From NCBI GenBank assembly GCA_052148155.1, contig JBKQIY010000144.1, positions 547-64,546 of the forward strand: a DNA stretch of 64,000 bases, read 5' to 3'. Below, piece by piece: positions 9,536-26,891 of this stretch (position 1 is the first letter of the stretch; the number at the start of each line of letters is the position of its first letter). Origin of the DNA: Acidimicrobiia bacterium. Lineage in GTDB: Bacteria > Actinomycetota > Acidimicrobiia > IMCC26256 > PALSA-610. A program made the translations under genes and the position numbers. The notes under the pieces were generated by a model. That model did not search any database. It worked only from the letters and a program-made list of their open reading frames with translations, and had not been told where the DNA came from.

Positions 9536-9804
9536 CCAGCGCGAGAGGCGGGACATGGGCAGTTCGTGTGGATTGCGAAGCGTGAAGCTGCGGCTGCGGC
9601 TTGCCACGGCTTGGGCGGTTTCGGTTTCGGGCACGCGCACGCGTCGTGAACCCCGGGCCGGCAATCGATCGACATGTGTTGATGCCAACACGCCTCGGCC
9701 GCCGAAGCCGTGGCAACTTGTCGTCTCGGTAAACAAAGCGTGAAGGACAGGAGATCGGGCGGACTATCGTGCGCGAGCGGTGTACCGCGTGCGAGGCTCA
9801 TGTG

Positions 9805-10161
9805 ATGGCAGAGATCCACATTTTCGCGCGGGCCCGAGACAAGATGGCGGTCCAGGCGGGCGAGGTCGTCTTCAGCCAAGGCGACGCCGGCGACGCGATG
9901 TACGCCGTACTCGACGGAGCCGTTGACATTTCGTTGGGCGGTGTCGCGGTGGAGACGGTCGGCCCGAGCGGAATATTTGGGGAACTTGCACTCGTGGACG
10001 CGAGCCCTCGCAGCGCGACCGCGATCGCGCGTGTCGAGTCGCAGCTCGCTCGGGTGGATCGAAGAGAGTTCATGTTCTTGGTGCAGGAGCATCCGACTTT
10101 CGCACTTCAAGTGATGCAGGTGCTCGCGGAACGTATTCGGCACGCGAACGAATCCCACTAG
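9805..10161 (+). CDS. stand-alone cyclic nucleotide-binding (CNB) domain protein
   Basis: ORF 9769..10161; ATG 9805 preferred (MAEIHIF...). Phosphate-binding cassette FGELALVDASPRSATAIA. At about 118 aa there is no room for an output domain. Confidence 0.8.
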   Translation: MAEIHIFARARDKMAVQAGEVVFSQGDAGDAMYAVLDGAVDISLGGVAVETVGPSGIFGELALVDASPRSATAIARVESQLARVDRREFMFLVQEHPTFALQVMQVLAERIRHANESH

Positions 10162-10443
10162 CTCTCCGGGCCGTGTTGCCGGTCCGGCGTTTTCGGCGTC
10201 GTACGGGTCGGTTGTTGGCTCGGCGAGGAGATCGCGGGTCTTGAGCCGTCGTGGGCCAAGCCGGCACTGTCGGGCGCCCAAGACGGAACGTTGAACACAG
10301 CAAGGCAACGCCCATGTGCGTGACTGCACCGGCATGCTCGCGCGGCCGGTCGTCGCGGTTGGTCTCCCGGCTCGCCGTAGCAGCGCTGACGTAAGATCGG
10401 ATGGTTGCTGGCTGACCGGACACCCAACTCGAAGGAGGCTTGG

Positions 10444-12285
10444 TTGTCGTCGGTCGTCGACGCGGAGCGTCGCGGTGAGCTTTTGCTCGCCTTCGACCTC
10501 GTGGAACGCGCGCTGGTCGAATTCCCGGGCGATGTCGAACTCCAATTCCGGGCCGTCCTCGCACTCGCGCGGTCCGGCTCGACGGGAGAGGCGGCTCGCA
10601 GGTTCGACGAGTATGAGCTCGGGATCGTCAAAGATGAAGACACGCAGGCGCTGTCGGCGCGACTGAAAAAGGATGCTGCCCTCGTCGCCGATGGTGACGA
10701 AGGACAGCGACTCGCTCTGCAAGCTGCCCTCGAGTATCGGATGATCTATGAGCAGACCGGCGGCTATTTCCCTGCGGTGAATGCGGCGACGTTAAGTTTC
10801 CTTGCCGGCGATCGCGACGGGGGAGTTGCGTTGGCTGGCGATGCGCTCCGAGCCGTCGTCGCTTCGCACGACGATTCTTACTACGCGTTGGCGACTGAAG
10901 CCGAAGCGCACCTGCTTCGGGGCGAGGTCGAAAGCGCACGGAGTGCGCTCGAGCGTGCGGCCCGTGCGAACAAGGGTGACTACGGCGCGCTCGCGACGAC
11001 GCGCCGCCAGTTACGCATGATCTGCCAGACCGCCGGAATCGATACGGAGGTCCTTGCGGCTGTGGCTGGACCAGCAGTCGTTCATTTCTGCGGTCACCGG
11101 ATCGATGTCGATGACCGTGGACCGTTCCGGTCGACGGACGAACGCCATGTTGGTGGCCTGATCGTGGACGTGGTCGCGAGACACAACGTCGGGTTCGCCT
11201 ATGGGTCGCTGGCGAGTGGCGGAGACATCTTGTGGGCCGAGGCGCTTCTCGCCCGCGGCGTCGAACTCCATATCGTCTTGCCGTTTGCGCTCGAAGAGTT
11301 CGTCGAGTGCTCGGTCGCCCCTTCCGGACACTCGTGGGTCGAACGGTTTTCGCAATGCCTCGATCGGGCTGCGTCGGTGACCTACGGCACCAGTGACGCC
11401 TTCCTCGGCGATGACGTCCTGTACCGATACTGCTCCGAAATTGCGATGGGACTCACCCTGGTGCGTGCACGCTGGCTCGACGCCGAGGTGCACCAATTCG
11501 CGTTGTGGGACGGTAAGCCGGCCCGCGGCGAGGCCGGTACCGCAATCGACGTCGCTCTGTGGCAGAGCACCGGTCATCCGGTCACGATCGTCCGACCTCC
11601 CACTGTCGACGGCCCGCCGATCATCACGGACTCGGGCCAGCGGTCAGTACCGGGCCCGACCGTCGCGCGTCACGACCGGGCCGTGGAGGCAGGTTCGGGG
11701 CGCGTCATCCGGGCGATGTTGTTCGCCGACGTACGCGGGTTCTCGAAACTCACTGACGAGCAACTTCCGACGTTTGCACAATATGTGTTCGGGTCTTTCG
11801 CCGAGGTGCTCGACCGATACCGCACCGTTGTGGAGTACAGCAACACGTGGGGGGATGCGCTCTACGCGGTCATCACCGATGCTGTGTCGGCGGCCGCGTG
11901 TGCGCTCGACCTCCAACACGCCATCGAGCATTTGGCTCCCGAGACGGTTGGGCTCCCGGCCGATCTCGCGCTCCGTCTTGGCGGACACGTCGGTCCGATC
12001 TTCCCTGTCGCCGATCTCATCCTCAAACGGCGATCGTTCGTCGGCTCGCACGTGAACCGCACGGCGCGTATCGAGCCCGTCACACCGCCGGGTGCCGTCT
12101 ACGTCACATCACCGTTCGCGGCTGCGCTCGAACTCACCGACGGACACCCATTCGCCTGCGACTACGTCGGACATCGGCCCGCCGCGAAAGATTACGGGTC
12201 GCTGCGCATGTATCGACTCCGACTGGCGAATACGACTCCGGCCGACTTGTCGGGCGGAGGGCGCGCGGGCACGCCCGTCTCGTAG
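10444..12285 (+). CDS. multidomain class III adenylate/guanylate cyclase (N-terminal helical repeats + SLOG-like Rossmann domain + cyclase)
   Basis: ORF 10405..12285; TTG 10444 preferred because GAAGGAGG lies 5-6 nt upstream. C-terminal cyclase motifs: MLFADVRGFSKL, NTWGDALYAV, GSHVNRTARIE. Middle region: VVHFCGHRI...GFAYGSLASGGDILWAEALLARGVELHIVLPF. Confidence 0.85.
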   Translation: MSSVVDAERRGELLLAFDLVERALVEFPGDVELQFRAVLALARSGSTGEAARRFDEYELGIVKDEDTQALSARLKKDAALVADGDEGQRLALQAALEYRMIYEQTGGYFPAVNAATLSFLAGDRDGGVALAGDALRAVVASHDDSYYALATEAEAHLLRGEVESARSALERAARANKGDYGALATTRRQLRMICQTAGIDTEVLAAVAGPAVVHFCGHRIDVDDRGPFRSTDERHVGGLIVDVVARHNVGFAYGSLASGGDILWAEALLARGVELHIVLPFALEEFVECSVAPSGHSWVERFSQCLDRAASVTYGTSDAFLGDDVLYRYCSEIAMGLTLVRARWLDAEVHQFALWDGKPARGEAGTAIDVALWQSTGHPVTIVRPPTVDGPPIITDSGQRSVPGPTVARHDRAVEAGSGRVIRAMLFADVRGFSKLTDEQLPTFAQYVFGSFAEVLDRYRTVVEYSNTWGDALYAVITDAVSAAACALDLQHAIEHLAPETVGLPADLALRLGGHVGPIFPVADLILKRRSFVGSHVNRTARIEPVTPPGAVYVTSPFAAALELTDGHPFACDYVGHRPAAKDYGSLRMYRLRLANTTPADLSGGGRAGTPVS

Positions 12286-12326
12286 GTCTGCAACCTCGCT
12301 CGGTCCGGTGGACTCGACGGTGAGAT

Positions 12327-15300
12327 CTAGCTTTTCGAGGTGGTCGTCGCGTCGGGAACCGCGGAGGACAATCTCGCCGGAACGTCGGTTGGACGGGCCG
12401 CGATGCCGGCCGAGCCGTACAGAGTCTTACGGTTCGGCCGTCGGCACCGTGGACGGTGAGGCGTCTCGCCCATCGCAGGACAGCCCGACGGGCTCTCGTT
12501 CACCGGCCCCGAAGATGGGAGCTCGGCACGGACCGGCAATGGTTTCGCGGTCCGCACCACAGATGGCCGCGCGATCGGCGGGGACGCGTTGATGTTCCAT
12601 GTGGCGGTGGTCTGAGCCGGCGAACACGCGGGTGCGTAGGTCTCGCCGGGAAAGTATGTCTGCCACTCGTCTGGGGTCAGCGCCCGCGGGGCGGCGGCAC
12701 AGAGCTGGCTGAGCAGCGTGGCGGGTGACGCACCCCACGAGTCGGTGAAGAAACGCGAACCGTGGAAATCGATGGCGACCGCGGCGATTTCACCGTCAGC
12801 GGGCATCCCCACAGATATCTGCCCTTCGACCTGGCCGACAGCCGGCGTGACGTCTCGCGCGATTCCCAGCGGCTGCAAGAATCGGCCCAACTCGTCGCCG
12901 GTCACCACGACATCGGTGCCGTCACCGCGGACGTCGTTGTAGAAGTTCAGGCCTACCGTCGCGACCTCCCCGTTGTCTGAAATCGCCAGCGCGGTCGGAT
13001 CGAACGTGGACGATGAGGTCAGCACGACATCCGATGCCACGTCTTGCGTGTTCGACGTTGACCCGAGATTCCAGATCGCGACGGTCCCGCCGGCATTGAA
13101 GGCGAGAAGCTGGCCGTTCGGGCTGAACCGGAGGGCATAACCGTCGTTTCCGAAGCTGCCGCTGCCGAGGGCAACGACCCCGGCGCTCATGCTCAGCGTG
13201 TGGAGTATCGCTCCGCTGCGCGCATCCAACAGCACGCCGCCGACTTCGCCGGAAGAACCCTGCGTTGCCACAAGCGCGACGACGTCGGTGCCGGGTTGAA
13301 AGGCCGGTACGGACACGGTCTGCTCGCCCAGCCCGACCGACTGGTTGTCGATCACCTGGAGTGGTTGACCGGTCGCGACGGAATAGGTCACCAGCGCGCA
13401 GCTGTGCGGTCCGGACGTCCCGTGCGCGTTGTCGTCGAAGGTCACGGCGACGACGTCGGTGGCGTCACTCAATGACACACCGACGGGGATGTCGTCGGGT
13501 ATGCGAGCCAGGGGGGTCGCGCCCAACTGCGTGCTGTCGACGATGGTGCCGGTCGCCGCGTCGAGGATCAGCACGCGGCACGGGCATCCGCCGGTGTGTC
13601 CGATGATCGCGACCGCGTCTGTCCCGCTGGGATCAAAGCTGACCGCGTTGATCGCTTCGTCGGGTCCGAGGGGCACGGATAGGCGACGTTCGGTGTGAGC
13701 GGCTCCGTCGATCATGGCGAGGGAGTGTGCACTCCAGGCGAGCGCGGTCTGGCCGGTCGGTGCCTCGACGACGGTCGTCCCCGCGGGCACAGCACCGTTG
13801 CTGGGCACGATGGCGGACGAGGTACTGGCCGGTGACTGCAGGTCGATGATCTGCAATGCCGTCAGGCTCGACGCGACCAGGCTGGTTCCGTTCGGACTGA
13901 TCGACAGATTGCAGAAGTACGACGCGCATAACTCGAGCGGTACGACACCCTGCGTCGTCCATTTCGCCGCGGTGAGGTTCCACACCTGGTAGGTCGGGAC
14001 CGACCCGATCGAGTTGAGCAGCACGACCGCGCGGCCGTCCGGGGTCGAGGTCACGAGCGTGTTGAGGTTGCCGCCACCAAGCGCGGCCGGAATAGGCCGC
14101 GTCAGTTCGAACTGTGCACGGGGCGCCGAGGCCCCGGCAACCACTTGCAGTTCGACGTGCCGTTCGTTGTTATACACCCACACGGTCGGGCCGGTGGGCG
14201 CGAACTCCACCGCGGGCGGGTCGGCGGTCTCGTCTGGCGAGATCCGCGGCGGGTTGACCCAGCTGCTCAACTCCGGTGTCGCGAAACTGCCGATCTTGTA
14301 GGCGGCGCCGGCCTTGCCGGTCGCGACGTCGATCGGGACCAACGCGTAGTCGTCGCCTCCGGTGTAGACGAGCGCAGTGGCGAGTGAGCCGTCCTCGTTG
14401 ATCGCGACACCGACCGGCTGGTGGGGGAGTGCGATTCGGCGCGGGGGTGATTGACCGGTTGATATGTCCACCGCCTTCGCGCCGTTCGGGGCGAGCCACG
14501 CGAGCACGTCGCCGTTTCCCGACAGCGCAGGGCGCCGTCCGGTCAGACCGTTGCCGCTGTCCGGTTCTTGAGAGGCGACCGACCATGCCGAGACGGTGCC
14601 GTCGCCGCTCGCGGCGTTCGACGTCAGCGCCAAGACGTTGCCGTCGCCCGAGAGGGCGCTTTCGGAAGTCAGGCCGGTGCTACTCGTCGCGTTCGCCGCC
14701 AGTGAGCCGTCGGCGTTCCACACCTGCACGACGTCGGGCCGGCTCGATTGTGCCGATGAATACGTCGCGAAGCGCTGGCTGTCCGATGACCATGACACGG
14801 GATACGGCTGCGCCGACAGGAGATCTGACGTCGATCCGGCGAGCTGGCCGGTCACGAAGCGGCCGCCGGCATTCGCGAGTGCGTCCAGTGCACTGTTCGC
14901 AACTGAACCGTCGATCTGGATATCAGGCTGTTCGCAGCCGCTGTCTGGATACGAGGCGGTGTTCGAGGTCGAGTTCGGGTTGATCGCGCTGCTCGCACAT
15001 GCGTGGCGTACGGCCTCCGCCGCGAGGAGGACGCCCAGCTGGTAGGTCTGGTCACCCGAGCTCATCAGTTGTTCGCTGCGACGGGCAGCAAGTCTCGCCT
15101 CGGCGAGGAGGGTCGATTGCTGCAGCGCGAGGCTGCCCTTGACCAAGTTCGAGTTCGCGGTGTCGAGATTCGCGTTGGTGATGGAGAGTTCTTGCGCGCG
15201 GCTCTCGGCCAGGGTGCGCTGCTGGGAGGCTTCGATGGCACTGAGCTCGGCTTCATGCTGGCGGGCGAAAGCCAAACCACGCTGCTGGTCTGCCTCCATG

Positions 15301-16091
15301 CGCTGCTGGTCCGCCACAAGGCTGGCCCTGGTCGCCTTTCCGCGCGCGACAATCGCCTTTTCGCTCGCGATGAGTGCGAGCCCCTTTTGGACATCGGCGA
15401 GGTGCTGTTCGGTTCGCGCCCGTGCCGCGCTGCGTCGAGCGGCTCCTGCCGCGTTGACCGCGAAGACGGACGTCGCGATCGATGCCAGGGTGAGAACCAC
15501 GAGCGCGACGCCCGCCGCGACCGCCTGCCGTAACGCTCGCCGATGCTGACGTACGTCTTCGCCAGTGAGTTCGTCCTTGGCCATCCCATGCGCGGGCGCG
15601 GCGAGGTCGGCGATGTGATCTCGGAACCGGCCGTCGGTCAGGTCGAGCTGGACTTCTGCACGTGCCCAGCGCATATCGACATGAAACGGCTCTTCCTGAA
15701 AACAGCCCGCGAACGCCGACCCCAGCGCGGTTGTGGCTTTCCAGTCGAAGTCGTTCGCGCTTTCGTCCCAGCGGATCTCGCCGTCAGTCAACAACACCAA
15801 GAGTCCGTCCGAGCCGTGCTTGGCCCGCCAGTGTTCGACCTCGCGTCCACACCACACCGACGCCGCCGCGTCGGGCGAGGCAAGGAACAGGAAGTACCGT
15901 GAGCTATCGATCGCGTCGGCGATGGAAGACCACAACCCCGGATTGGCCGACAGGGCTGTCCGGTCCCGGAACACGTCCAGTGCCCGGCGCCGGTACCACG
16001 GCTTGGCGAACTTCGACAGTCCGTCTTGCACGCGCTCCGATAACAGATCGTCGCCGCCATGGCTGTACGAAATGAAGACGTCGTAGCTCAT
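12327..16091 (-). CDS. TIR domain protein with one TM helix, coiled coil and large beta-propeller-like region
   Basis: ORF 12327..16106; ATG 16091 preferred (GGGAGG 5 nt upstream). N-terminus SYDVFISYSH...FLFLASPDAAASVWCGREVEHW (TIR). Hydrophobic AVAAGVALVVLTLASIATSVFAV. Q-rich heptad region. Repeated blade-like units (LSGDGNVLAL, LSGNGDVLAW, INEDGSLATA, STPDGRAVVL, ISPNGTSLVA, FSPNGQLLAF, ISDNGEVATV). Near-C-terminal LTPDEWQTYFPGETYAPAC. Confidence 0.85.
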   Translation of the reverse strand: MSYDVFISYSHGGDDLLSERVQDGLSKFAKPWYRRRALDVFRDRTALSANPGLWSSIADAIDSSRYFLFLASPDAAASVWCGREVEHWRAKHGSDGLLVLLTDGEIRWDESANDFDWKATTALGSAFAGCFQEEPFHVDMRWARAEVQLDLTDGRFRDHIADLAAPAHGMAKDELTGEDVRQHRRALRQAVAAGVALVVLTLASIATSVFAVNAAGAARRSAARARTEQHLADVQKGLALIASEKAIVARGKATRASLVADQQRMEADQQRGLAFARQHEAELSAIEASQQRTLAESRAQELSITNANLDTANSNLVKGSLALQQSTLLAEARLAARRSEQLMSSGDQTYQLGVLLAAEAVRHACASSAINPNSTSNTASYPDSGCEQPDIQIDGSVANSALDALANAGGRFVTGQLAGSTSDLLSAQPYPVSWSSDSQRFATYSSAQSSRPDVVQVWNADGSLAANATSSTGLTSESALSGDGNVLALTSNAASGDGTVSAWSVASQEPDSGNGLTGRRPALSGNGDVLAWLAPNGAKAVDISTGQSPPRRIALPHQPVGVAINEDGSLATALVYTGGDDYALVPIDVATGKAGAAYKIGSFATPELSSWVNPPRISPDETADPPAVEFAPTGPTVWVYNNERHVELQVVAGASAPRAQFELTRPIPAALGGGNLNTLVTSTPDGRAVVLLNSIGSVPTYQVWNLTAAKWTTQGVVPLELCASYFCNLSISPNGTSLVASSLTALQIIDLQSPASTSSAIVPSNGAVPAGTTVVEAPTGQTALAWSAHSLAMIDGAAHTERRLSVPLGPDEAINAVSFDPSGTDAVAIIGHTGGCPCRVLILDAATGTIVDSTQLGATPLARIPDDIPVGVSLSDATDVVAVTFDDNAHGTSGPHSCALVTYSVATGQPLQVIDNQSVGLGEQTVSVPAFQPGTDVVALVATQGSSGEVGGVLLDARSGAILHTLSMSAGVVALGSGSFGNDGYALRFSPNGQLLAFNAGGTVAIWNLGSTSNTQDVASDVVLTSSSTFDPTALAISDNGEVATVGLNFYNDVRGDGTDVVVTGDELGRFLQPLGIARDVTPAVGQVEGQISVGMPADGEIAAVAIDFHGSRFFTDSWGASPATLLSQLCAAAPRALTPDEWQTYFPGETYAPACSPAQTTATWNINASPPIARPSVVRTAKPLPVRAELPSSGPVNESPSGCPAMGETPHRPRCRRPNRKTLYGSAGIAARPTDVPARLSSAVPDATTTSKS

Positions 16092-16560
16092 GCTGGCCTC
16101 CCGCAATGCGGCCCACGGCCGCTTCCCGCATCGCTAGATCATGCCCGAACGCCCGGTCGGGTCGCGTTCGTGCCGCGGCAGTGCCGCCAGGTTCGATGTC
16201 CGTTCGGGGTCGGCTCGCGCGACACGTCGCGATCGTTTCGAGCGGGGAATCGCCTTCCCGGCGGCGAGCCGGACCCGTTTGTGTCGCGAACTCGACATTC
16301 GACACGCACGGCCGTTATGAGCCGATCTCTGGTCGTCGCCGGAAGCGTCGAGACCGCAAGAGCATGTTCGGTGTCGGCGGGACGAGCTGGGTCAGGAACG
16401 CTCGCCCGACGCGACTTCGGGATGTCACCCGAGTCCGAACCCGAGACGCTCCGGTGCGAGAAACGGTCCGTCGACCAGCAGGTCGGACGCGCGGGCTGCT
16501 CCGGTGCCGGTCAGGGGCCGGGGTGGCGCCCCGGGCCGGTGACGAACAAGACTCATCCTC

Positions 16561-17383: not shown

Positions 17384-18067
17384 TCAGCGTTCGCGGTTGT
17401 CGAACCGATATCCCATGCCTGGCTCGGTGATGAAGTACCGCGGTCGGGACGGTTCGGGTTCGAGCTTGTTTCGGATCTGGCTGATGTAGATGCGCAGATA
17501 GTGGGTCTTGTCGTCGTGTTCTGGCCCCCATGCGTGTTGGAGCATCTGCTGTTGCGTCACGAGCCTGCCGGGGTGGCGGACGAGCTGTTCGACGATCTGC
17601 CATTGCCTGGGCGTGAGACGAATCTCGCCGTCATTGCCGCGTATTTGCTTGGCTCGCAGATCGATCGTGAAGTCGTCGGTGACGACGACTGGTGCTGCTT
17701 CTGTGGTTGTTCCTCGCCGCAACACGGCGCGCAGTCGTGCGAGGAATTCATTGACGACGAACGGTTTCGTGACGTAGTCGTCTGCGCCTGCGTCGAGCGC
17801 TGCGACCTTCGCAGACTCGGTATCGACGGCCGACAGCGCCACGATGGGCACGTCAGTCCAGTCTCGCAACGCGGTCGCGACCATGACGCCGGCCATGTCG
17901 GGCAGATAGAGGTCGAGGATGACGGCGTCGGGATGTTCGCGTTCGGCGAGCGTCAGACCTTCGCTGCCTGTGGTCGCGATCACGACCTCGTACTCGTGGG
18001 CCTCGAGGAGGATCCGCAGCGCGCGCCCTAACGCGGTGTCGTCCTCGATGACGAGCAGCTTGGTCAC
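17384..18067 (-). CDS. kdpE: KdpE-like OmpR-family response regulator
   Basis: ORF 17384..18346 trimmed to GTG 18067 (VTKLLVIEDD; the alternative ATG at 18097 adds 10 aa). Receiver motifs DLYLPDMAG and DDYVTKPF. C-terminus THYLRIYISQIRNKLEPEPSRPRYFITEPGMGYRF closely resembles my recollection of E. coli KdpE. Confidence 0.85.
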   Translation of the reverse strand: MTKLLVIEDDTALGRALRILLEAHEYEVVIATTGSEGLTLAEREHPDAVILDLYLPDMAGVMVATALRDWTDVPIVALSAVDTESAKVAALDAGADDYVTKPFVVNEFLARLRAVLRRGTTTEAAPVVVTDDFTIDLRAKQIRGNDGEIRLTPRQWQIVEQLVRHPGRLVTQQQMLQHAWGPEHDDKTHYLRIYISQIRNKLEPEPSRPRYFITEPGMGYRFDNRER

Positions 18068-18200
18068 GGCTCTCGCACATTCGGACCGACCGGGCATCGT
18101 TGCGTTCCGGGCGGGTTCGGCGCATGTCTGGACCGTGCCGGTGGCTGGCGGGTGTGTGTCGCCGTTTCCTCTTGTCGTTGGGACGCCGTGAGGGCCTCCT

Positions 18201-18884
18201 CTAGTCGTGTCTGAGGTTGGACGCTGAATGTTGGAAGAGCCGTTCGATGTCCGCTTCGGTGGCGCTTTCCGTAACGAGGATGACTTCGTCGCCCGGCGCA
18301 AGTTGGAATGATCCGCCGGGGACGTTGGGTTCACCGCCTCGCACAACCGCAGCGATCATCGTGCCGGTGGGCATCGTGATATCGGCGAGCGTGCGTCCCG
18401 CAGCGTCGGAGTGTGCACCGATCGTCGTTTCGATGAGCCGCACGCCGGCACGGGCGAGTTGCAGCAGCCCGATCGTGTCAGCCGAGCCCGTTGCTTCCAT
18501 CACCAGCGACAAGAGGGTCGACGATGCGGAGACAGCGACGTCGATGCCCCAATGTTCATCGAAGAGCCACTGATTTTCAGGATTGTTCACGCGTGCAACG
18601 ATGCGTGGAATGTCGAAATAGCGTTTGGCGAGCAACGAGGTGACGAGATTGTCTTCGTCATCGCCGGTGGTCGCGACCAACACGTCGGCTTTGAGCGCGC
18701 CCGATCCTTCGAGGACGTTGGGGTCGCAGGCGTCACCCCACAAGACCTGGCATTTGAGGTTACCTTTGAGGCGTTCGACGAGTTCGTCGTCGATGTCGAT
18801 GAGGCTTACCTCGTGACGAGCCGCGGTCAGCGCGGTCGCGGTTTCGATACCGAGACGTCCGGCTCCGGTGATGATGACTCTCAT
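18201..18884 (-). CDS. trkA: TrkA-type RCK (K+ transport regulatory, NAD-binding) protein
   Basis: MRVIITGAGRLG Rossmann motif plus a C-terminal TrkA_C-like region. ATG 18884 overlaps the upstream stop (ATGA). Confidence 0.85.
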   Translation of the reverse strand: MRVIITGAGRLGIETATALTAARHEVSLIDIDDELVERLKGNLKCQVLWGDACDPNVLEGSGALKADVLVATTGDDEDNLVTSLLAKRYFDIPRIVARVNNPENQWLFDEHWGIDVAVSASSTLLSLVMEATGSADTIGLLQLARAGVRLIETTIGAHSDAAGRTLADITMPTGTMIAAVVRGGEPNVPGGSFQLAPGDEVILVTESATEADIERLFQHSASNLRHD

Positions 18885-19540
18885 CGTGGCCATTCCTTGT
18901 CCAAGAAGCTGCGAAGTCGTTGAAGAGAGGTTGCCGCGACGATGAAACTGATGATGTCTCCGTCTTCGATGGCGGTCGTCGTGGTCGGGATGAGGGATTG
19001 GCCCCCGCGGTTGATCTCGACGACGTGGATCTCGCTGTCGACGTTGAACTCGTTGACGTTACGTCCGGTGAGATAGATGGGCGCAGGCGCACGGACCAGA
19101 AGGTTTTCGCCGTTGCCGAAGACTTGTTCGGGTTCGAGCTCACGAAAGGAAAGGAGTTGATGGATCTCGTTGACGGTCCAACGCACAGAGGCGACGGTCG
19201 TGATGCCGAGGTCTCGGTAGATGTCGGCGCGGCGGGGGTCGTAGATGCGGGCGACGACTTTCGGAACGCGGTAGATATCTCGGGCGGTTCTCGCTCCGAC
19301 GATGTTGGAGTTATCGCCGGACGTGACCGCGATGAACGCGTCGGCTTCTTGAATGTTGACGGCTTCGAGAACGCGTTTGCTGAACCCGATTCCGGTCTGC
19401 GCGCGTCCCGAGAAGCGGCGCGACAGGCGGAGGAAGGCTTTGGGGTTCTTGTCGATCACGCAGACGGAGTGGCCTTCGCTGTCGAGCCGTTCCGCGATGC
19501 CGGCTCCGACGCGTCCGCAGCCCATGACGATGGCGTGCAT
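18881..19540 (-). CDS. trkA: TrkA-type RCK (K+ transport regulatory, NAD-binding) protein
   Basis: MHAIVMGCGRVGAGIA Rossmann motif, then DAFIAVTSGDNSNIV. GGAGAA RBS lies between the ATPase stop and this ATG. Confidence 0.85.
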   Translation of the reverse strand: MHAIVMGCGRVGAGIAERLDSEGHSVCVIDKNPKAFLRLSRRFSGRAQTGIGFSKRVLEAVNIQEADAFIAVTSGDNSNIVGARTARDIYRVPKVVARIYDPRRADIYRDLGITTVASVRWTVNEIHQLLSFRELEPEQVFGNGENLLVRAPAPIYLTGRNVNEFNVDSEIHVVEINRGGQSLIPTTTTAIEDGDIISFIVAATSLQRLRSFLDKEWPR

Positions 19541-19550
19541 GCTGGTTCTC

Positions 19551-22325
19551 CTAGGCGGTCGTCGGTTGGCGTCGTGATCGGATCCACAGTTTGCGCAGTT
19601 CGTCTGCGATCAGCAGGACGACACCGAACGCGATGAGCATGAGCCAGTCGTACACGGTGAGTGGCGCCGTGTGGAACACCGATTGCAGCAGTGGGACATA
19701 GCTGATCGCGGAGATGATCGCGATGCCGAGAAATTCTGCGCCGACCAGCGGGAGGTTGGACAGAAGCCCGACTCGGAACACGCTCTCCTCGTCGGTGCGG
19801 ACCGCGAAGCCGTTGAAGAACTGACTGACGACGATGCCGGCTTGGGTCATGGTCAGCGCTTCGCGGTAGGTGGGGTTGCTCGCGGTGAACTGACTGAACG
19901 GAATGTGTGCGGAATGGATCCGCCAGTAAAAGGCGAAGATCACACCAGCTGACTGGATGATGCCCAGAAACAAGAATCGGCGTACGACCGACCCCGAGAA
20001 CAGCCGTTCGGATGGAGGGCGAGGCGGACGGTCCATGATGCCAGGTTCGGGTGGCTCGGCGCCGAGCGCGAGGGCAGGCATGACGTCCGATCCAAGGTCG
20101 ATCGCGAGGACCTGCAGCGCGGTGAGCGGCACGAGCGGGAATCCGACGAACACACTGATCAGGATCGGGCTGAGTTCGGCAATGTTGTGACTGAACAGGT
20201 AGATGAGGAACTTACGGATGTTCTGGTACACCGAGCGTCCGAGCTCGACCGCCGAGACGATCGACGCGAACGAATCGTCGAGCAGGACCATCACAGCGGC
20301 TTCACGAGCGACGTCAGTGCCGGTGATGCCCATCGCGACACCAATGTCCGCGCGTTTGAGCGCCGGAGCATCGTTGACGCCGTCGCCGGTGACCGCGACG
20401 ATCTCGCCCATGTCTTTCAGGGCGCTCACGACTTGCATCTTGTGTTCGGGCCGTACCCGTGCGAACACGATCTCCCAATGCGCTCTGAGCACGTCCTTGA
20501 GGTCGTCGTCGGACATGGCTTCGAGATCGTTGCCGCTGACGACCTTGGCGTCATCGCCGACAACGATGCCGACCCGTCGAGCGATGGCTTCGGCGGTGAG
20601 GCCGTAGTCGCCGGTGACCATGATCACGCGGATGCCCGCACCGCGACACGCACGCACCGCATCGACCACTTCCGGGCGAGGAGGATCGAGCATCCCGACC
20701 AAGCCCAAAAACGCGAGTTCACGTTCGGCCTCCTCGACCGGCGCGTAGGCCTGGGAGACGGGTCTTGACGCGACACCCAGCACCCGCAACGCATCTCCGG
20801 CGAGCGCGTCGTTCGCGGCGGTGATCTCGTTGCGGAGCTCGTCGGTCAACGCGACGACGGACCCGTTCCAGCGTACGGTCGTACATCGCGCGAGGAGCTC
20901 TTGCGGAGAGCCCTTGACGAAGCTCTCGTAGCAGCCGTCGACATCGTGGATCGTCGACATCAGTTTGCGATCCGAATCGAAAGGGTGCTCACTGACCCGT
21001 GGGGTCTTCTCAGCCGCAGCTTCGATGTCGAAACCCGCCTTCGCGGCAGCGACCACGATCGCGCCTTCGGTTGTGTCCCCAAGGATCCGCCAGCCCTGGT
21101 CTGCCGTCGGTGCCAAGAGTCTCGCGTCCGCGCACAACGCAGCGGTCCGCAACAGGACAGATACGTCTTCATCGACGTCGTCGACAGCTCCTTCGGGCGC
21201 ATAGCCGACACCATGTACGCGGTGCACGATGCCGGACGCCCACGCTGCCTGTACTGTCATTTCGGCCTTGGTCAAGGTGCCGGTCTTGTCGGTACAGATG
21301 ACCGTCGTGGAGCCAAGTGTCTCCACCGCGAGCAGCTTTTTGATCAACGCATTGCGCTTCGCCATGCGACGTACGCCGATCGCCAACGAAACCGACAATG
21401 TGGCTGGGAGTCCCTCCGGAACGAGCGCGACCATGACGCCAAGCGCGAAGACGAACGCGTCCGTCACCTTCGAACCACTGGTTGTGGCACGCAACGCGAA
21501 CAAGACCGCACCAAGACCGATGGCCGCGACCGAAACCCGCTTGGCCATGATCGCGACCTGCCGTTGGAGTGGGCTTTTTTCTTCGTGGACCTCAGAGGTG
21601 AGTTGGAAGATCCGCCCGAACTCGGTTCCCAATCCGGTCGCGAAGATGACGGCCTTGCCGGTTCCGTTTACGACCGACGTCCCCATGAACACTGCGTTGC
21701 GGGCCTCGACGAGCTCCGTGCCGGGAGCCGCCTCGCTGTCGGTGCGTCCCACCGGGTCGCTCTCGCCGGTGAGCGCAATGTTGTTGACTGACAGCTCATG
21801 AGCCTCGACGACGCGAGCGTCCGCGGAGATCGCATCGCCCGCCTCGAGAACCACAACATCGCCAGGAACCAGGTCCCGTGCTGGCACCTCTACGCGCTCG
21901 CCATCGCGAATCACGCGACTCGATCGAGGCACCATCGCCTGCAGGGCCTCAGCCGTCCGTTCCGCGGAATACTCCTGGAAAAATCCGATCACGGCATTGA
22001 GCAATACGACACACAAGATCGCGATCGCCAGCTCCAAGTTGCCGGGATCGTGCGGCGTTTGGATGCCGTACGCCAAGAACGTGATCGCTGACGCAACGAT
22101 CAGCACTACCGCGAAAAGATCGGTGAACTGCGCGAAGAACCGAAAGATGATCGGGCGGTGCTTTGCGCGCGGCAGCTCGTTCGGACCGCACCGCACGAGC
22201 CGCGCTGCGGCCTCGTCGTTCGTGAGTCCACGCGGCGAACTGTCGAGCGCCGCGTACACATCCAGGCGCGACAACTCAATCGGCCCGTCCGCCACTGGCA
22301 ACTCCCGCTCCTGCGCGGTCGTCAA
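19551..22325 (-). CDS. cation-translocating P-type ATPase (P2-type)
   Basis: [10 protein letters not shown] phosphorylation motif, [23 protein letters not shown], and an N-terminal cation-ATPase domain ([19 protein letters not shown]). Start is TTG 22325 per the ORF track and is uncertain. Confidence 0.9.
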
Positions 22326-22711: not shown

Positions 22712-23713
22712 TCAGTCTGCGGCTTGGGCGAGAACCTTCATATCGCTCGGAAGCTGCGCCTTCTCCCGGAAGTCGCGCAGTCCGTAGCCGGTCAGGGTCG
22801 TCGGTCCGATTGCGCGGGCGGTCGCGCTGCGCCGCAAGCCGAACATGGGTGCGAGTTCGCCGAAGTAGCTGCCGACGTCTATGCGCGCGAGGTCTTCTTC
22901 GCTGCCGTCGTCGCGTGTACGCAGGATCTGGATCTGGCCTGTCTCCACGACGTAGACGAGGTCGCCGCGGTCGCCCTGGGTGAAGATGGCCTCGCCCGCC
23001 GCGAGTTGGATGGTTTCGGGATCGCGGGGTGAGGTGTCGGCACGTGGAGTCAGGTTTACGACACCGTCGGCGAGCGGAATCATCCGCTCGTCGTGTGTGG
23101 CGACGACGACTAACCGGCCGTCGTCGGCGAGCGCCCGCATCAGCTTCAGTACGCCGTCGACCTGGATGTAGTCGAGGTGGGCGGTGGGTTCGTCGGCGAG
23201 GATGACGGGCGGGTCGTGCGCGAGCGCCCGCGCGATGGCCACGCGCTGTTGTTGGCCGCCCGACATTCCCGAAGGTCGATGCTGGAGGCGGTGGCCGAGG
23301 TCCACTCGTTCGAGGAGTTCGGTGGCGCGGGCACGAGCCACGCGAGATCTCACTCCGGCTCCGCGCAGCGGCACCATCACGTTCTCGACTGCGGTCAAGG
23401 ACGGGACGAGGTTGAACGCTTGGAACACGACGCCGACGGTCTTGCGGCGATACTCGGTCAGTGACGCACCGTGGAGGGCGATGACATCAACTCCTGCGAC
23501 GGACACTTCGCCGGAGTGCGGGGTCAAAATCGCGGCGAGCACCGACAAGAGCGTCGTCTTGCCGCATCCCGACGCGCCGAGCAGCAAGACGAGCTCGCCG
23601 GCCGATGCTTCGACTGAAAGTCCGTCGATCGGCCGGATCGGATATCCCCCCGACGAGTACTCGATGACAAGATCGGTCACGCGCAGATCGGCCCGGGCGG
23701 TGGACACGCTCAC
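22712..23713 (-). CDS. ABC transporter ATP-binding protein with C-terminal cyclic nucleotide-binding domain
   Basis: ORF 22712..24043 trimmed to GTG 23713, which overlaps the permease stop (GTGA). Walker A GASGCGKTT, signature MSGGQQQR, Walker B VILADEPT. A C-terminal region of roughly 110 aa follows with GEAIFTQGDRGD...FGELAPMFGLRRSATARA (CNB phosphate-binding cassette). Confidence 0.85.
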   Translation of the reverse strand: MSVSTARADLRVTDLVIEYSSGGYPIRPIDGLSVEASAGELVLLLGASGCGKTTLLSVLAAILTPHSGEVSVAGVDVIALHGASLTEYRRKTVGVVFQAFNLVPSLTAVENVMVPLRGAGVRSRVARARATELLERVDLGHRLQHRPSGMSGGQQQRVAIARALAHDPPVILADEPTAHLDYIQVDGVLKLMRALADDGRLVVVATHDERMIPLADGVVNLTPRADTSPRDPETIQLAAGEAIFTQGDRGDLVYVVETGQIQILRTRDDGSEEDLARIDVGSYFGELAPMFGLRRSATARAIGPTTLTGYGLRDFREKAQLPSDMKVLAQAAD

Positions 23714-24813
23714 CCGCCGAACGCCAGGGCAGGATCGACGGTCACGGCTCGTCGCAACGCAACGAGCGACGACGCCAGACCGACCACAACCGCGACGATC
23801 GGTAGCACGACGTACGACGAGATCGGGACCGAGACCGCCATCGCCATCGCGGGTGTCAGGAGAAACGAGAGAATGTATGCGGCGACCGCGGCGGACAACG
23901 CCAGCACGATCGCTTGGAACGCCAAGCCGGACAGCAGTGTCCGCGTCGCGACGCCGGTCGCTTTGAACACTGCGAAGTCGCGGGATCGCTCGATGGCCTG
24001 CAAGTACAGGATCGAACCGATGATTCCCGCTGCCACGATCCACAGCAGAACGGTGATGAAGCTGATTGTCTGTGTCGCTTGGCTGATCGGTCGTTTGAGG
24101 TCAGCCTTCACCGCCTGGTTCGAGAGCAGCTGGTAGCCCGCGGGTGGCGACACGATCGAGCCTCGCACCGCGACAGTCGTGGCGAGCGGAGCGCCGTTCA
24201 GCGCTCCTTCTTGCAGGCTGGCTAGCGGCACGAATGCGACGGGAACGCCAGCGAAGTACGTCAGCCCTTTGGTGCGACCCACGATCGTGAACTCGCGGCC
24301 GAGCGCACGAACCGTCGAACCGAGCCGCAGGCCGAGCGAGGCATCAGCGATCATGTCGCCCGATGCGCGCAACGACCGACCGCCGGCAAGCTTCGGATTC
24401 ACCATCCCACCCGGCACGATCCCGATCACGTTGAGGTCGCGCACCGACGTCGTCGTGACGCTCGTGCGCATGAGTAGCACCGGCTCGGCGGCCTGTACGC
24501 CGGGGAGCGCGGCGATCTTGTGCGCTTCCGAAGCCGGAAATACCCGCGAACTCGTGAACGGTCCCGACACGCCGGCCGGCACAATCCACGAGTCGACATG
24601 GAAGGCCGCAACCGTGTGTTTGATCTCGTTTCCGAAGCTGGCGCTGACGCCGCTCATCAACAGCGTCAACGCGAAGACCAACCCGGCCGCAAGCACCCCG
24701 ATCAGAAACCGACGGCGCCGCCACTGCAGGTCACGCAAGCTCACGAACAGCAAGAACCTCGAGCTTAACGGCACCGTGGTTCCCCTCGCGGGCCGCGGGC
24801 ACTTCGAATTCAT
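23710..24813 (-). CDS. ABC transporter permease (FtsX/MacB-like)
   Basis: ORF 23710..25002 trimmed to ATG 24813. Order is N-terminal TM (FLIGVLAAGLVFALTLLM), a large loop, then three C-terminal TM segments (FITVLLWIVAAGIIGSILY..., LSGLAFQAIVLALSAAVAAY..., VVLPIVAVVVGLASSLVAL). Confidence 0.75.
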   Translation of the reverse strand: MNSKCPRPARGTTVPLSSRFLLFVSLRDLQWRRRRFLIGVLAAGLVFALTLLMSGVSASFGNEIKHTVAAFHVDSWIVPAGVSGPFTSSRVFPASEAHKIAALPGVQAAEPVLLMRTSVTTTSVRDLNVIGIVPGGMVNPKLAGGRSLRASGDMIADASLGLRLGSTVRALGREFTIVGRTKGLTYFAGVPVAFVPLASLQEGALNGAPLATTVAVRGSIVSPPAGYQLLSNQAVKADLKRPISQATQTISFITVLLWIVAAGIIGSILYLQAIERSRDFAVFKATGVATRTLLSGLAFQAIVLALSAAVAAYILSFLLTPAMAMAVSVPISSYVVLPIVAVVVGLASSLVALRRAVTVDPALAFGG

Positions 24814-25265
24814 CCGCGGACCGCGCGGCGCGCGCCGCCCTGAGATGACGTGACTCTCAGTCTCGGCGTCGGCCAGGATCGAGGGGATCCGTTTCCAGAG
24901 CGAAACGTGTTGCTCCTCGCATGTGGCGGCGCCTGTCGGGTAGCCGAGCCACGGTCGGAAACGATGCCGCGCGTGTTCGTCGCAGTCGCGGGCGTTTGTC
25001 ACATTTCGGGCCCGATGTTCTCGGAGCGTCCAACGTTTCGTTCAGTCCGAAGTGCGCTCGGCTGAACCGGTGAACCGCCGCCAAACGAGGCGTCCGCGGT
25101 CAGGCACACGCGCGTTGACGCTCGTGCCGGTGTTGTGAGCGCGGTCGCGGTAACGGCCTGAAAGTACGGAGACGTCGCACTCCAGGTCCGCTCGACCGTG
25201 GTGGGTCCGCTCGCAACGGTGCTTCTGGCCTCGGGCCCCCGTCTCGGCGTCGGGGAGGAGGATGG

Positions 25266-26360: not shown

Positions 26361-26891
26361 TCAGGCTGGGTCGCGTCCGCGGGAGCGTTCGTGTTCTTGG
26401 GCGCCGACCAAAGCGTATCCCCGCAGGGTTCGAAACCGCATGCATGGATGCGGTGGTGGTTTGGTGTGGTGGTGGTGGTGGTGGTGGTGGTGTGGTGTTC
26501 GCTGCGGCGACGACGGGACGGAACCCCGAGGGTGCGCGAGTGACGTCGAGACGGTTCGAGCTCCCACTCGCGAGCGTGTGCGGTCCGAGATGCCCGGGCG
26601 GATCGGCGGCGAAGGTTGGCGTCGGCGACACCAGGCCTTGTTGTGCGGTTGGCCTGCGGTCGCCTCAGTCTTGACGGTGGAGTTCGCCGTGATCGACGTG
26701 GCGCGGTGTCGGCGCGACGAGTCGGCGACGTCGGATGTCGCCACGCCGACGAGGCGACGTTCGTCCCGGCGGTCGTTGCGCACGAACCGGTACGTGTCGG
26801 TTGTGTCGTGGTCGGTGCCATTTCGCCGACCCGGCCCGCCGAGACACGTGACGCCGAACTTGAGCTTGTTCTGTGGCGTGCGGTTGCTCAT
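26361..26891 (-). CDS. doubtful ORF: Arg-rich hypothetical protein with a (His)9 tract
   Basis: ATG 26891 (MSNRTPQNKLKFGV...), within ORF 26361..26993. The first ~80 codons show high third-position GC by my count. However, the sequence is low-complexity and all six frames are open across the repeat, so this may not be a gene. Confidence 0.2.
   Translation of the reverse strand: MSNRTPQNKLKFGVTCLGGPGRRNGTDHDTTDTYRFVRNDRRDERRLVGVATSDVADSSRRHRATSITANSTVKTEATAGQPHNKAWCRRRQPSPPIRPGISDRTRSRVGARTVSTSLAHPRGSVPSSPQRTPHHHHHHHHHTKPPPHPCMRFRTLRGYALVGAQEHERSRGRDPA
26452..26497. repeat. imperfect (GGT)n trinucleotide microsatellite, with a perfect (GGT)8 core at 26468-26491
   Basis: ggtggtggtttggtgtggtggtggtggtggtggtggtggtgtggtg, read directly. 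Confidence 0.9.

What the first reader, a model, noticed from the sequence alone, without database searches (positions are those of the whole stretch)
22712..24813. FtsX/MacB-type ABC exporter whose ATPase carries a C-terminal cyclic-nucleotide-binding domain
Seen in sequence: the ATPase has normal Walker A (GASGCGKTT), signature (MSGGQQQR) and Walker B (ILADEPT) motifs. A C-terminal extension of roughly 110 aa follows, with GEAIFTQGDRGDLVYVVETG ... GSYFGELAPMFGLRRSATARA, which is a canonical CNB phosphate-binding cassette. The permease and ATPase genes are translationally coupled (GTGA overlap at 23710-23713). Direct cNMP gating of a MacB/LolCDE-like mechanotransmission ABC system is not something I know to be characterised. 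Together with the cyclase and CNB genes at 9.8-12.3 kb, it makes cyclic-nucleotide signalling a recurring theme of this window.
Basis: partly seen in the sequence, partly recalled or inferred. Interest (0 to 1): 0.55.

Follow-up and report, generated by a model that had tools for sequence, protein, structure and literature searches.

The report
ABC pump ATPase with cyclic-nucleotide sensor
A two-gene membrane pump of the MacB/FtsX type whose ATPase ends in a cyclic-nucleotide-binding domain is really there; it is common in Actinobacteria, including mycobacteria, and its architecture is already catalogued, but I found no report of anyone testing how the nucleotide controls it.

Summary
Window 22712-23713 (-) encodes a 333-aa ABC ATPase with intact catalytic motifs. 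Its 112-aa C-terminal tail matches Pfam cNMP_binding (65.7 bits, cut-off 27.5), and the cassette Glu286 and Arg295 align with those of PKA. The gene overlaps (GTGA) an upstream FtsX/MacB-type permease, whose start is more likely TTG 24753 than ATG 24813.

The pair is a conserved, self-contained module:
- A narrow pattern scan found it in at least 239 species genomes.
- The permease lies directly upstream in 73 of the 80 best loci, and no other neighbour is conserved.
- Relatives occur in Mycolicibacterium (59% and 39% identity), Euzebya and Nocardioides.

Published surveys already list M. tuberculosis Rv2564 as carrying a CNB domain and describe Rv2563/64 and Rv0072/73 as MacB-like with a regulatory NBD domain. 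I found no biochemistry, and no solved structure covers both domains.

The closest solved permease is the heme exporter HrtB, but its heme ligands are replaced here.

Most likely mechanism (inferred, not shown): cAMP or cGMP binding to paired CNB tails under the ATPase dimer tunes ATP-driven mechanotransmission.

Verdict: a new member of a known but uncharacterised kind; moderate interest.

The parts
23710..24753 (-). Type VII (MacB/FtsX-superfamily) ABC permease, 347 aa from TTG 24753. In 367-aa numbering the model shows TM1 at residues 17-71, an extracytoplasmic domain at 72-231, and TM2-TM4 at 232-359.
   Evidence: Pfam FtsX 8e-11. Homologues carry PF12704 MacB_PCD plus PF02687, and most start at the Leu21 equivalent. 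AF2 model has pLDDT 77.5. Foldseek best hit is HrtB 7w7a/7w78 (TM 0.68-0.72), followed by MacB, LolC/E, 5xu1, YbbP, BceB and FtsX. A profile against PDB sequences gives HrtB at 3e-18 over the full length.
22712..23713 (-). ABC ATPase with a C-terminal cyclic-nucleotide-binding domain, 333 aa, GTG start.
   Evidence: Translation. Pfam ABC_tran plus cNMP_binding. An identical protein exists in NCBI as 'MAG: ATP-binding cassette domain-containing protein [Acidimicrobiia bacterium]' (P0001).
23710..23713 (-). GTGA overlap: the permease stop TGA and the ATPase start GTG share bases.
   Evidence: Sequence read on the minus strand.
23051..23713 (-). Nucleotide-binding domain, residues 1-221. It contains Walker A (residues 46-53, 23555-23578), Q98, signature residues 150-157, Walker B D174/E175 and H207.
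   Evidence: all motifs invariant. Best NCBIfam matches are FtsE, DevA, LolD and MacB, all below their equivalog cut-offs. Best PDB folds are MacB, Spr0694, LolD, MJ0796, YbbA, FtsE and HrtA.
23018..23050 (-). Pro-rich linker TPRADTSPRDP, residues 222-232, conserved in close relatives. It replaces the N-terminal helical (alphaA/N3A) part of canonical CNB domains.
   Evidence: Alignment A1. Mean pLDDT of 58 for the 10-residue block 221-230.
22760..23017 (-). CNB beta-roll plus one hinge helix, residues 233-318. There is no long C-helix lid. Residues 319-333 are predicted disordered and end in a conserved AAD.
   Evidence: Pfam PF00027 65.7 bits. AF2 model has strands spanning 233-310, a PBC helix at 287-291 and a helix at 312-318. 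PDB sequence hits are PKA RI/RII, PKG, CRP family, Bd1971 and MloK-like.
22817..22867 (-). Phosphate-binding cassette YFGELAPMFGLRRSATA, residues 283-299, with Glu286 and Arg295.
   Evidence: Aligned with the PKA cassettes. Invariant in A1. Present in 79 of 80 loci.
9769..10161 (+). Context only: a stand-alone 130-aa CNB protein. No link to the ABC pair has been shown.
   Evidence: Pfam 1.9e-19. 39% identical to the ATPase tail over 88 aa.
10405..12285 (+). Context only: TPR-S/TPR/class III nucleotide cyclase, a possible local source of cNMP. No link to the ABC pair has been shown.
   Evidence: Pfam Guanylate_cyc 8.7e-8 and TPR-S 6e-9. It is not a conserved neighbour of the ABC pair.

Best explanation
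What is shown. This is a self-contained two-gene type VII (MacB/FtsX-superfamily) ABC system. Two 4-TM permease subunits each carry an extracytoplasmic domain of about 160 aa on long TM1/TM2 stalk helices. They pair with two ATPase subunits whose C-termini carry a minimal CNB domain: a beta-roll, an intact phosphate-binding cassette and one hinge helix.

What is inferred.
1. The two CNB tails sit beneath the NBD dimer, in the position held by the C-terminal regulatory domains of MalK, MetN, ModC and CysA.
2. They bind a 3',5'-cyclic nucleotide. cAMP is the more likely ligand, because the RSAT cassette resembles CRP and MloK1.
3. Movement of the cassette and hinge helix on binding changes how easily the NBDs close. 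This tunes ATP hydrolysis and therefore the mechanotransmission stroke of TM1/TM2 and the extracytoplasmic domain.
4. I favour activation by relief of autoinhibition, which is the usual logic of CNB domains, but the direction is unknown.

Output. As in HrtBA and other type VII systems, the output is most likely expulsion of a hydrophobic or amphipathic molecule from the outer leaflet, not transport across the bilayer. The substrate is unknown. It is not heme through HrtB's ligands. A lipid is a lead, from the Nocardioides fusion of the permease to a CNB-patatin phospholipase.
For: - Domain calls and motifs.
- Cassette Glu and Arg aligned to PKA and invariant.
- CNB fold in the AF2 model (pLDDT 81).
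- Permease topology and stalk helices of about 55 residues each.
- Type VII structural and sequence relatives, HrtB best.
- NBD closest to MacB, LolD and FtsE.
- The pair is conserved as a unit: the permease is directly upstream in 73 of 80 loci, and nothing else is conserved in more than 11 of 80 loci.
- The same pair occurs in Mycolicibacterium, Euzebya, a Mycobacteriales MAG and a Logan assembly.
- All 120 best homologues in two searches carry PF00005 plus PF00027, so the fusion is under selection.
- NBD-CNB fusions with 2 or 3 CNB copies also pair with FtsX/MacB_PCD permeases.
- In Nocardioides limicola the orthologous permease (38% identity) is fused to a CNB-NTE-patatin module.
- HrtBA mechanism and lateral substrate access: PMC9271180.
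Against: - No binding or activity data exist for any member that I could find.
- The CNB domain lacks the N-terminal helices and the C-helix lid that transmit or cap ligand binding in characterised CNB proteins, so affinity and coupling may be atypical.
- A few distant representatives have lost the cassette Arg (P0136 and P0139).
- The orientation of CNB relative to the NBD in the model is uncertain (linker block pLDDT 58).
- No cyclase is conserved next to the pair.
- The lipid lead rests on one fusion, plus my unverified recollection that Rv2565 (a CNB-patatin protein) is adjacent to Rv2563/64.
Confidence: 0.6

Rival explanations
1. The tail is a CNB-fold regulatory or dimerisation module that does not sense cAMP or cGMP. 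It would either bind another small ligand, as NtcA, CprK and other CRP/FNR-superfamily domains do, or simply hold the ATPase dimer together.
For: It is a minimal domain without alphaA/N3A or a lid helix. The Pro that usually precedes the cassette Arg is replaced by R/Q/K in the close family. Some distant members lack the Arg. No cyclase is conserved nearby.
Against: Glu286 and Arg295 contact the ribose 2'-OH and the cyclic phosphate in characterised CNB domains. Both are invariant across the family and in register with PKA. The Pfam score is more than twice the gathering threshold.
Confidence: 0.2
2. The system is FtsEX-like. It moves no substrate, and its extracytoplasmic domain instead activates a partner enzyme outside the membrane, such as a cell-wall hydrolase or lipase. 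On this reading cNMP would control an extracellular activity from inside the cell.
For: It has the type VII architecture with an extracytoplasmic domain on stalk helices. FtsX appears among the fold hits (8ymc and 8i6o). There is precedent for a type VII ABC paired with an esterase: the YbbAP-TesA entries 9ge6-9ge8 appear.
Against: No partner gene is conserved next to the pair in 80 loci. FtsX is a weak hit (E 1.5e-5), whereas HrtB, a true substrate expeller, is the best hit by both fold and sequence.
Confidence: 0.15
3. It is an HrtBA-type heme-detoxifying exporter with an added sensor.
For: HrtB is the best solved relative over the full length (Foldseek TM 0.68-0.72; profile E 3e-18). It has the same size and the same N-terminal motif.
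Against: The heme ligand Glu219 aligns with Ala, and the heme-stacking His163 aligns with an invariant Gly (residue roles from PMC9271180). Identity is only about 21%. HrtA has no CNB domain. No HssRS/ChrSA-type regulator is conserved nearby.
Confidence: 0.03
4. It is a glutamine or polar amino-acid importer ATPase (GlnQ). Relatives are named this way in M. tuberculosis and in some MAG annotations.
For: P0119 is named 'glutamine transporter ATP-binding protein'. Rv2564 and Rv0073 carry GlnQ-type names. The NCBIfam GlnQ model scores 152.9 bits.
Against: The GlnQ score is far below its cut-off of 379 and lies below the FtsE, DevA, LolD and MacB matches. The partner is a 4-TM FtsX/MacB_PCD permease, not an importer permease. 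No binding-protein gene is conserved nearby. The review itself doubts the name.
Confidence: 0.02

Closest known systems
Mycobacterial Rv0072/Rv0073 and Rv2563/Rv2564 ('GlnQ-like') ABC systems, represented here by the Mycolicibacterium sp. XJ870 pair in L081
   Same: It is the same two-gene module: a 349-aa MacB_PCD/FtsX permease followed by a 329-aa ABC_tran plus cNMP_binding ATPase. The ATPase is 59% identical over both domains and the permease is 39% identical over its full length. The literature lists Rv2564 with PF00027 and describes both M. tuberculosis systems as type VII [ECD/TM/NBDr]x2.
   Different: The class is different (Acidimicrobiia rather than Mycobacteriales). I could not compare directly with the H37Rv sequences, because they are not in any searchable collection here. 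In M. tuberculosis a CNB-patatin gene (Rv2565) is said to lie next to Rv2564, which is my recollection only. No such gene lies near the window pair.
HrtBA heme exporter of Corynebacterium diphtheriae (PDB 7W78-7W7D)
   Same: It is the best solved relative of the permease by fold and by sequence, over the full length, with a 4-TM plus extracytoplasmic-domain layout of about 345 aa. Its ATPase, HrtA, is among the NBD fold hits. It provides a model in which substrate is taken laterally from the outer leaflet and squeezed out on ATP binding.
   Different: The heme ligands Glu219 and His163 are replaced by Ala and Gly. Identity is about 21%. HrtA has no C-terminal sensor. HrtBA is regulated transcriptionally, not by a fused domain.
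MacB, LolCDE and FtsEX (type VII mechanotransmission ABC systems)
   Same: It shares the NBD subfamily, the FtsX C-terminal domain and MacB_PCD, and long stalk helices.
   Different: No adaptor (MacA), no second permease paralogue (LolC/E), and no EnvC/PcsB/RipC-type partner is conserved nearby. None of these systems has a CNB domain on its ATPase.
C-terminal regulatory domains of importer ATPases (MalK, MetN, ModC, CysA, PotA)
   Same: An extra domain follows the NBD at the same position, and these chains are the only PDB entries that align beyond residue 221. From established knowledge, they regulate transport by ligand-dependent association beneath the NBD dimer.
   Different: The folds are unrelated and the rmsd is high (8-12 A). 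Those are importers with different permeases, and their ligands are substrates or regulator proteins, not second messengers.
Other CNB-ABC combinations
   Same: A cyclic-nucleotide-binding domain is attached to an ABC transporter. NBD-CNBx2, NBD-CNBx3, ZnR-NBD-CNBx2 and NBD-NBD-CNB proteins all exist. The CNBx3 form is encoded next to an 803-aa FtsX permease.
   Different: The copy number and placement of the CNB domain differ. A search hit (PMC10986499, the HetC peptidase-ABC exporter of Nostoc) contains the phrase 'cyclic nucleotide-binding domain' five times, but I did not read it.

Membership tests
Type VII ABC (MacB/FtsX superfamily) | Permease with four TM helices and a large extracytoplasmic domain between TM1 and TM2 | tested here: met
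   The AF2 model shows H17-71, a beta-rich domain at 72-231, H232-286, H290-322 and H331-359. Pfam FtsX matches, and MacB_PCD is present in homologues.
Type VII ABC (MacB/FtsX superfamily) | Structural similarity to solved MacB, LolC/E, FtsX, HrtB, BceB or YbbP permeases | tested here: met
   Foldseek against PDB gives 57 hits at E<=0.001, and all 50 listed rows are this superfamily. The best is HrtB at E 8e-17 with TM 0.68-0.72.
Type VII ABC (MacB/FtsX superfamily) | ATPase of the MacB/LolD/FtsE subfamily with intact catalytic motifs | tested here: met
   The best NCBIfam matches are FtsE, DevA, LolD and MacB, all below their equivalog cut-offs, so the ATPase is an orthologue of none of them. 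PDB hits are MacB, LolD and MJ0796. The motifs are invariant.
Type VII ABC (MacB/FtsX superfamily) | Dedicated partner (adaptor, outer-membrane channel, hydrolase activator or lipoprotein acceptor) | tested here: not met
   No gene other than the pair itself is conserved in more than 11 of 80 loci. A partner encoded elsewhere in the genome cannot be excluded.
Cyclic-nucleotide-binding domain (PF00027) | Profile match above the curated threshold | tested here: met
   65.7 bits against a cut-off of 27.5, E 3.7e-18.
Cyclic-nucleotide-binding domain (PF00027) | Eight-stranded beta-roll with a short helix in the phosphate-binding cassette | tested here: met
   The AF2 model has strands spanning 233-310 and a helix at 287-291, with pLDDT mostly 76-95.
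Cyclic-nucleotide-binding domain (PF00027) | Cassette Glu (ribose 2'-OH) and Arg (cyclic phosphate) conserved and in register | tested here: met
   E286 and R295 align with the PKA RI/RII cassettes, are invariant in A1, and are present in 79 of 80 loci.
Cyclic-nucleotide-binding domain (PF00027) | N-terminal helical bundle (alphaA/N3A) and C-terminal hinge plus lid helices | tested here: not met
   Only an 11-residue Pro-rich linker precedes the roll. A single 7-residue helix (312-318) follows it, and after that the tail is disordered.
Cyclic-nucleotide-binding domain (PF00027) | Binds cAMP or cGMP | not testable with these tools
   This needs a binding assay. No solved structure and no paper on any member was found.
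Mycobacterial Rv0072/73 - Rv2563/64 type systems | FtsX/MacB_PCD permease of about 349 aa followed by an NBD-CNB ATPase of about 330 aa, homologous over both proteins | tested here: met
   This was tested against the Mycolicibacterium sp. XJ870 pair, with 59% identity over 310 aa and 39% over 348 aa. The link rests and on remembered gene lengths.
HrtBA heme exporter | Heme axial ligand Glu219 on TM2 and stacking His163 in the extracytoplasmic domain | tested here: not met
   The profile alignment places Ala246 and the invariant Gly189 (367-aa numbering) at these positions. The residue roles are from PMC9271180.
GlnQ-type polar amino-acid importer ATPase | Score above the equivalog cut-off, plus an importer permease and a binding protein | tested here: not met
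   GlnQ scores 152.9 bits against a cut-off of 379. The partner is an FtsX permease. No binding-protein gene is conserved nearby.

The most novel reading that the evidence does not exclude
A cytoplasmic second messenger (cAMP or cGMP) directly gates a type VII mechanotransmission ABC machine, so the cell's cNMP level controls work done on the outer face of the membrane. The output could be handling of a membrane lipid or lysolipid in concert with cNMP-regulated patatin/NTE phospholipases, as the Nocardioides permease-patatin fusion hints. This would be the first second-messenger-regulated type VII ABC system. It would also assign a function to Rv0072/73 and Rv2563/64 of M. tuberculosis.
Probability: 0.4. 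Interest if true: 0.65.

Novelty: new member of a known kind. Interest (0 to 1): 0.4.

Why it matters
Type VII ABC systems (MacB, LolCDE, FtsEX, HrtBA, BceAB) are central to envelope biogenesis, cell division and drug or toxin resistance. As far as I know, none is reported to be controlled post-translationally by a second messenger. From memory, M. tuberculosis encodes many adenylyl cyclases but has few understood cAMP effectors.

Two of its catalogued CNB proteins are ATPases of this same family, and they still carry a doubtful 'glutamine transporter' name. A conserved, compact two-gene module, present from Acidimicrobiia to mycobacteria and in cultured, non-pathogenic hosts (Mycolicibacterium, Euzebya tangerina, Nocardioides limicola), gives a tractable way to test whether and how cNMP controls such a machine. 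The Nocardioides fusion gives a first hint about the substrate class.

Tried and rejected
- GlnQ importer reading: rejected.
- HrtBA orthology: rejected, because the heme ligands are lost.
- Defence-system membership of the ABC pair: PADLOC gave only generic ABC-ATPase matches for the ATPase and nothing for the permease.
- Operon extension to the neighbouring genes (fatty-acid desaturase upstream; P-type ATPase, two TrkA genes and a response regulator downstream): none is conserved next to the pair in 80 loci.
- Riboswitch or other RNA element upstream: no Rfam match anywhere in the window.
- Promoter and terminator scans gave no more matches than the shuffled controls.
- Plasmid collection search: only NBD-level hits and no true fusions.
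- The diverse C-terminal alignment A3 was too variable to seed a genome scan, so the closer alignment A4 was used. As a result, 239 species is a lower bound for one subfamily only.
- The AFDB fold library was unavailable, so no structural census with UniProt names was possible.
- The exact window protein P0001 is not in the contig index.
- McCue et al. 2000, which to my recollection first listed Rv0073 and Rv2564 as cNMP-binding ABC proteins, is not held. I cite it only as a reference seen.
- The ligand (cAMP or cGMP) cannot be decided from sequence. The RSAT cassette resembles CRP and MloK1, but that is recollection, not a test.
Full report
**Observation**

The minus strand of window 22712-24813 carries two overlapping genes. 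The downstream gene (22712..23713) encodes a 333-aa protein with Walker A GASGCGKTT, Q-loop, signature MSGGQQQR, Walker B ILADEPT and H-switch ATHD. Pfam finds ABC_tran (residues 30-178, E 8e-34) and cNMP_binding PF00027 (residues 236-317, E 3.7e-18, 65.7 bits against a cut-off of 27.5).

The upstream gene ends in a TGA that shares bases with the ATPase GTG (GTGA at 23710-23713). It matches the FtsX C-terminal permease domain (E 8e-11).

One correction is needed.

**Is the CNB domain genuine?**

- Searched alone against all PDB sequences, the 112-aa tail hits PKA RI/RII, PKG, CRP-family regulators, Bd1971 and CNB-gated channels.
- Both residues are invariant in 32 homologues down to 66% identity. 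The motif recurs in 79 of 80 related genome loci, with the caveat that one search pattern contained it.
- An AlphaFold2 model (pLDDT 81) shows the NBD followed by a beta-roll, a short cassette helix (287-291) and one helix (312-318).
- The domain is minimal. An 11-residue Pro-rich linker replaces the N-terminal helices, and there is no lid helix.

**What is the permease?**

- An AlphaFold2 model (pLDDT 77.5) gives two helices of about 55 residues (TM1 and TM2 with stalks) flanking a 160-aa beta-rich extracytoplasmic domain, followed by TM3 and TM4.
- All 50 listed Foldseek hits in the PDB are type VII ABC permeases. HrtB is best (TM 0.68-0.72), followed by MacB, LolC/E, the pneumococcal 5XU1 system, YbbP, BceB and FtsX.
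- A sequence profile of the family also finds HrtB over its full length (E 3e-18), far ahead of LolF/C/E.
- HrtB's heme ligand Glu219 and stacking His163 (PMC9271180) align with Ala and an invariant Gly. This is therefore an HrtB-like machine, not a heme exporter.
- The ATPase is closest to FtsE, DevA, LolD and MacB but reaches none of their equivalog cut-offs. GlnQ scores lower and far below its own cut-off.
- No solved chain spans both NBD and CNB. Only importer ATPases with unrelated C-terminal regulatory domains align past residue 221.

**Distribution and context**

- The window protein is identical to an NCBI protein from an Acidimicrobiia MAG, and all 120 best homologues carry both Pfam domains.
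- An exhaustive search of cluster representatives finds about 16 full-length fusion clusters at 41-65% identity.
- That search also turned up other architectures: NBD-NBD-CNB, NBD-CNBx2, NBD-CNBx3 and Zn-ribbon-NBD-CNBx2.
- A narrow pattern scan of one genome per species found 239 species. The best 80 are almost all Acidimicrobiia or other Actinomycetota MAGs.
- In 73 of those 80 loci a permease homologue lies directly upstream; most of the other seven matches lie at or near a contig end.
- Clustering all flanking ORFs shows nothing else conserved in more than 11 loci. The neighbouring desaturase, P-type ATPase, TrkA genes and response regulator are therefore incidental. So are the stand-alone CNB gene and the cyclase at 9.8-12.3 kb, which are real but not linked by synteny.
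- A profile of the divergent members reaches named organisms: Euzebya tangerina, Nocardioides limicola, Mycolicibacterium sp. XJ870 and Mycobacteriales MAGs.
- The Mycolicibacterium pair (349-aa MacB_PCD/FtsX permease plus 329-aa ABC-CNB ATPase) is 39% and 59% identical to the window pair over the full length.
- The same module appears in Euzebya, in a Mycobacteriales MAG and in a Logan assembly, each with different neighbours.

**What is already known**

A survey lists Rv2564 with PF00027 (PMC4886424). A review of M. tuberculosis ABC systems describes Rv2563/64 and Rv0072/73 as MacB-like, type VII [ECD/TM/NBDr]x2. It says their function is uncertain, their 'glutamine' name is doubtful, and they are non-essential in vitro (PMC7761784).

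To my recollection McCue et al. 2000 first flagged Rv0073 and Rv2564 as cNMP-binding ABC proteins. That paper is not held. Ten full-text searches found no binding, activity or structural study. The architecture is catalogued but uncharacterised.

**A lead on function**

In Nocardioides limicola the orthologous permease (38% identical to the window's) is the C-terminal part of an uninterrupted 974-aa protein. Its N-terminal part is CNB-NTE_Ploop-patatin. It is followed by the NBD-CNB ATPase and then a CNB-GerE regulator.

A triple-CNB ATPase elsewhere is encoded next to an 803-aa FtsX permease, beside desaturase, acyl-AMP ligase and glycosyltransferase genes. In the window itself, a desaturase lies immediately upstream of the pair.

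Two further points fit with this. HrtB-type systems take their substrate laterally from the outer leaflet. A type VII ABC paired with an esterase also has precedent in the YbbAP-TesA PDB entries seen. Together these point, weakly, to a lipid-like substrate.

**Mechanism**

Shown: the parts list, their conservation as a unit, and the intact cassette.

Inferred:
- The CNB tails lie beneath the NBD dimer.
- They bind cAMP or cGMP.
- By moving the cassette and hinge helix, they change NBD closure and hence the mechanotransmission stroke.

I favour activation by relief of autoinhibition. The main rival is that the minimal domain binds something else, or nothing at all.

**Verdict**

It is a new member of a known but biochemically untouched kind. 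Interest is moderate. It would rise substantially if cNMP gating were demonstrated.

Noticed in passing
window 9769-16106: Three adjacent genes form a Pycsar-like parts list. The first is a 130-aa stand-alone CNB protein, which matches the CNB portion of PADLOC PycTIR and Effector-TIR models at about 7e-17. The second is a TPR-S/TPR/class III cyclase at 10405..12285 (+). The third is a convergent 1259-aa protein with an N-terminal TIR domain at 12327..16106 (-).
   Followed up: partly
L083:1080-4004 (Nocardioides limicola, JAERJA010000003.1): An uninterrupted 974-aa ORF fuses CNB, NTE_Ploop and patatin phospholipase domains to a MacB_PCD/FtsX permease that is orthologous to the window permease (38% identity). 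It is followed by the NBD-CNB ATPase and a CNB-GerE regulator, so three CNB proteins lie in a row.
   Followed up: partly
window 26452-26497: A (GGT)n microsatellite of about 16 copies lies in the gap between the desaturase gene and the next ORF. It produces the poly-W, poly-V, poly-G, poly-P, poly-H and poly-T shadow ORFs seen in all six frames.
   Followed up: partly
window 17384-22325 (-): A same-strand run lies downstream of the ABC pair. It comprises a P-type cation ATPase (924 aa), two tandem TrkA-N/TrkA-C genes and an OmpR-type response regulator. It looks like a cation-homeostasis cluster and is not conserved beside the ABC pair elsewhere.
   Followed up: partly
L084:4001-8375 (GCA_039028115.1): An ABC ATPase with three tandem CNB domains (653 aa) is followed by an 803-aa permease with two FtsX domains. 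The neighbouring genes encode two fatty-acid desaturases, an acyl-AMP ligase with a carrier domain and a glycosyltransferase.
   Followed up: no
one search hits P0126, P0241 and P0261: Giant proteins of 2651-3779 aa matched the query in 11-14 separate stretches. Their best-scoring stretch falls in the CNB region of the query (residues 236-315). They were not examined further.
   Followed up: no
window 24754-25265: About 510 nt of apparently non-coding sequence separates the desaturase stop from the likely permease start. It has no Rfam match and no sigma-70-type promoter match.
   Followed up: partly
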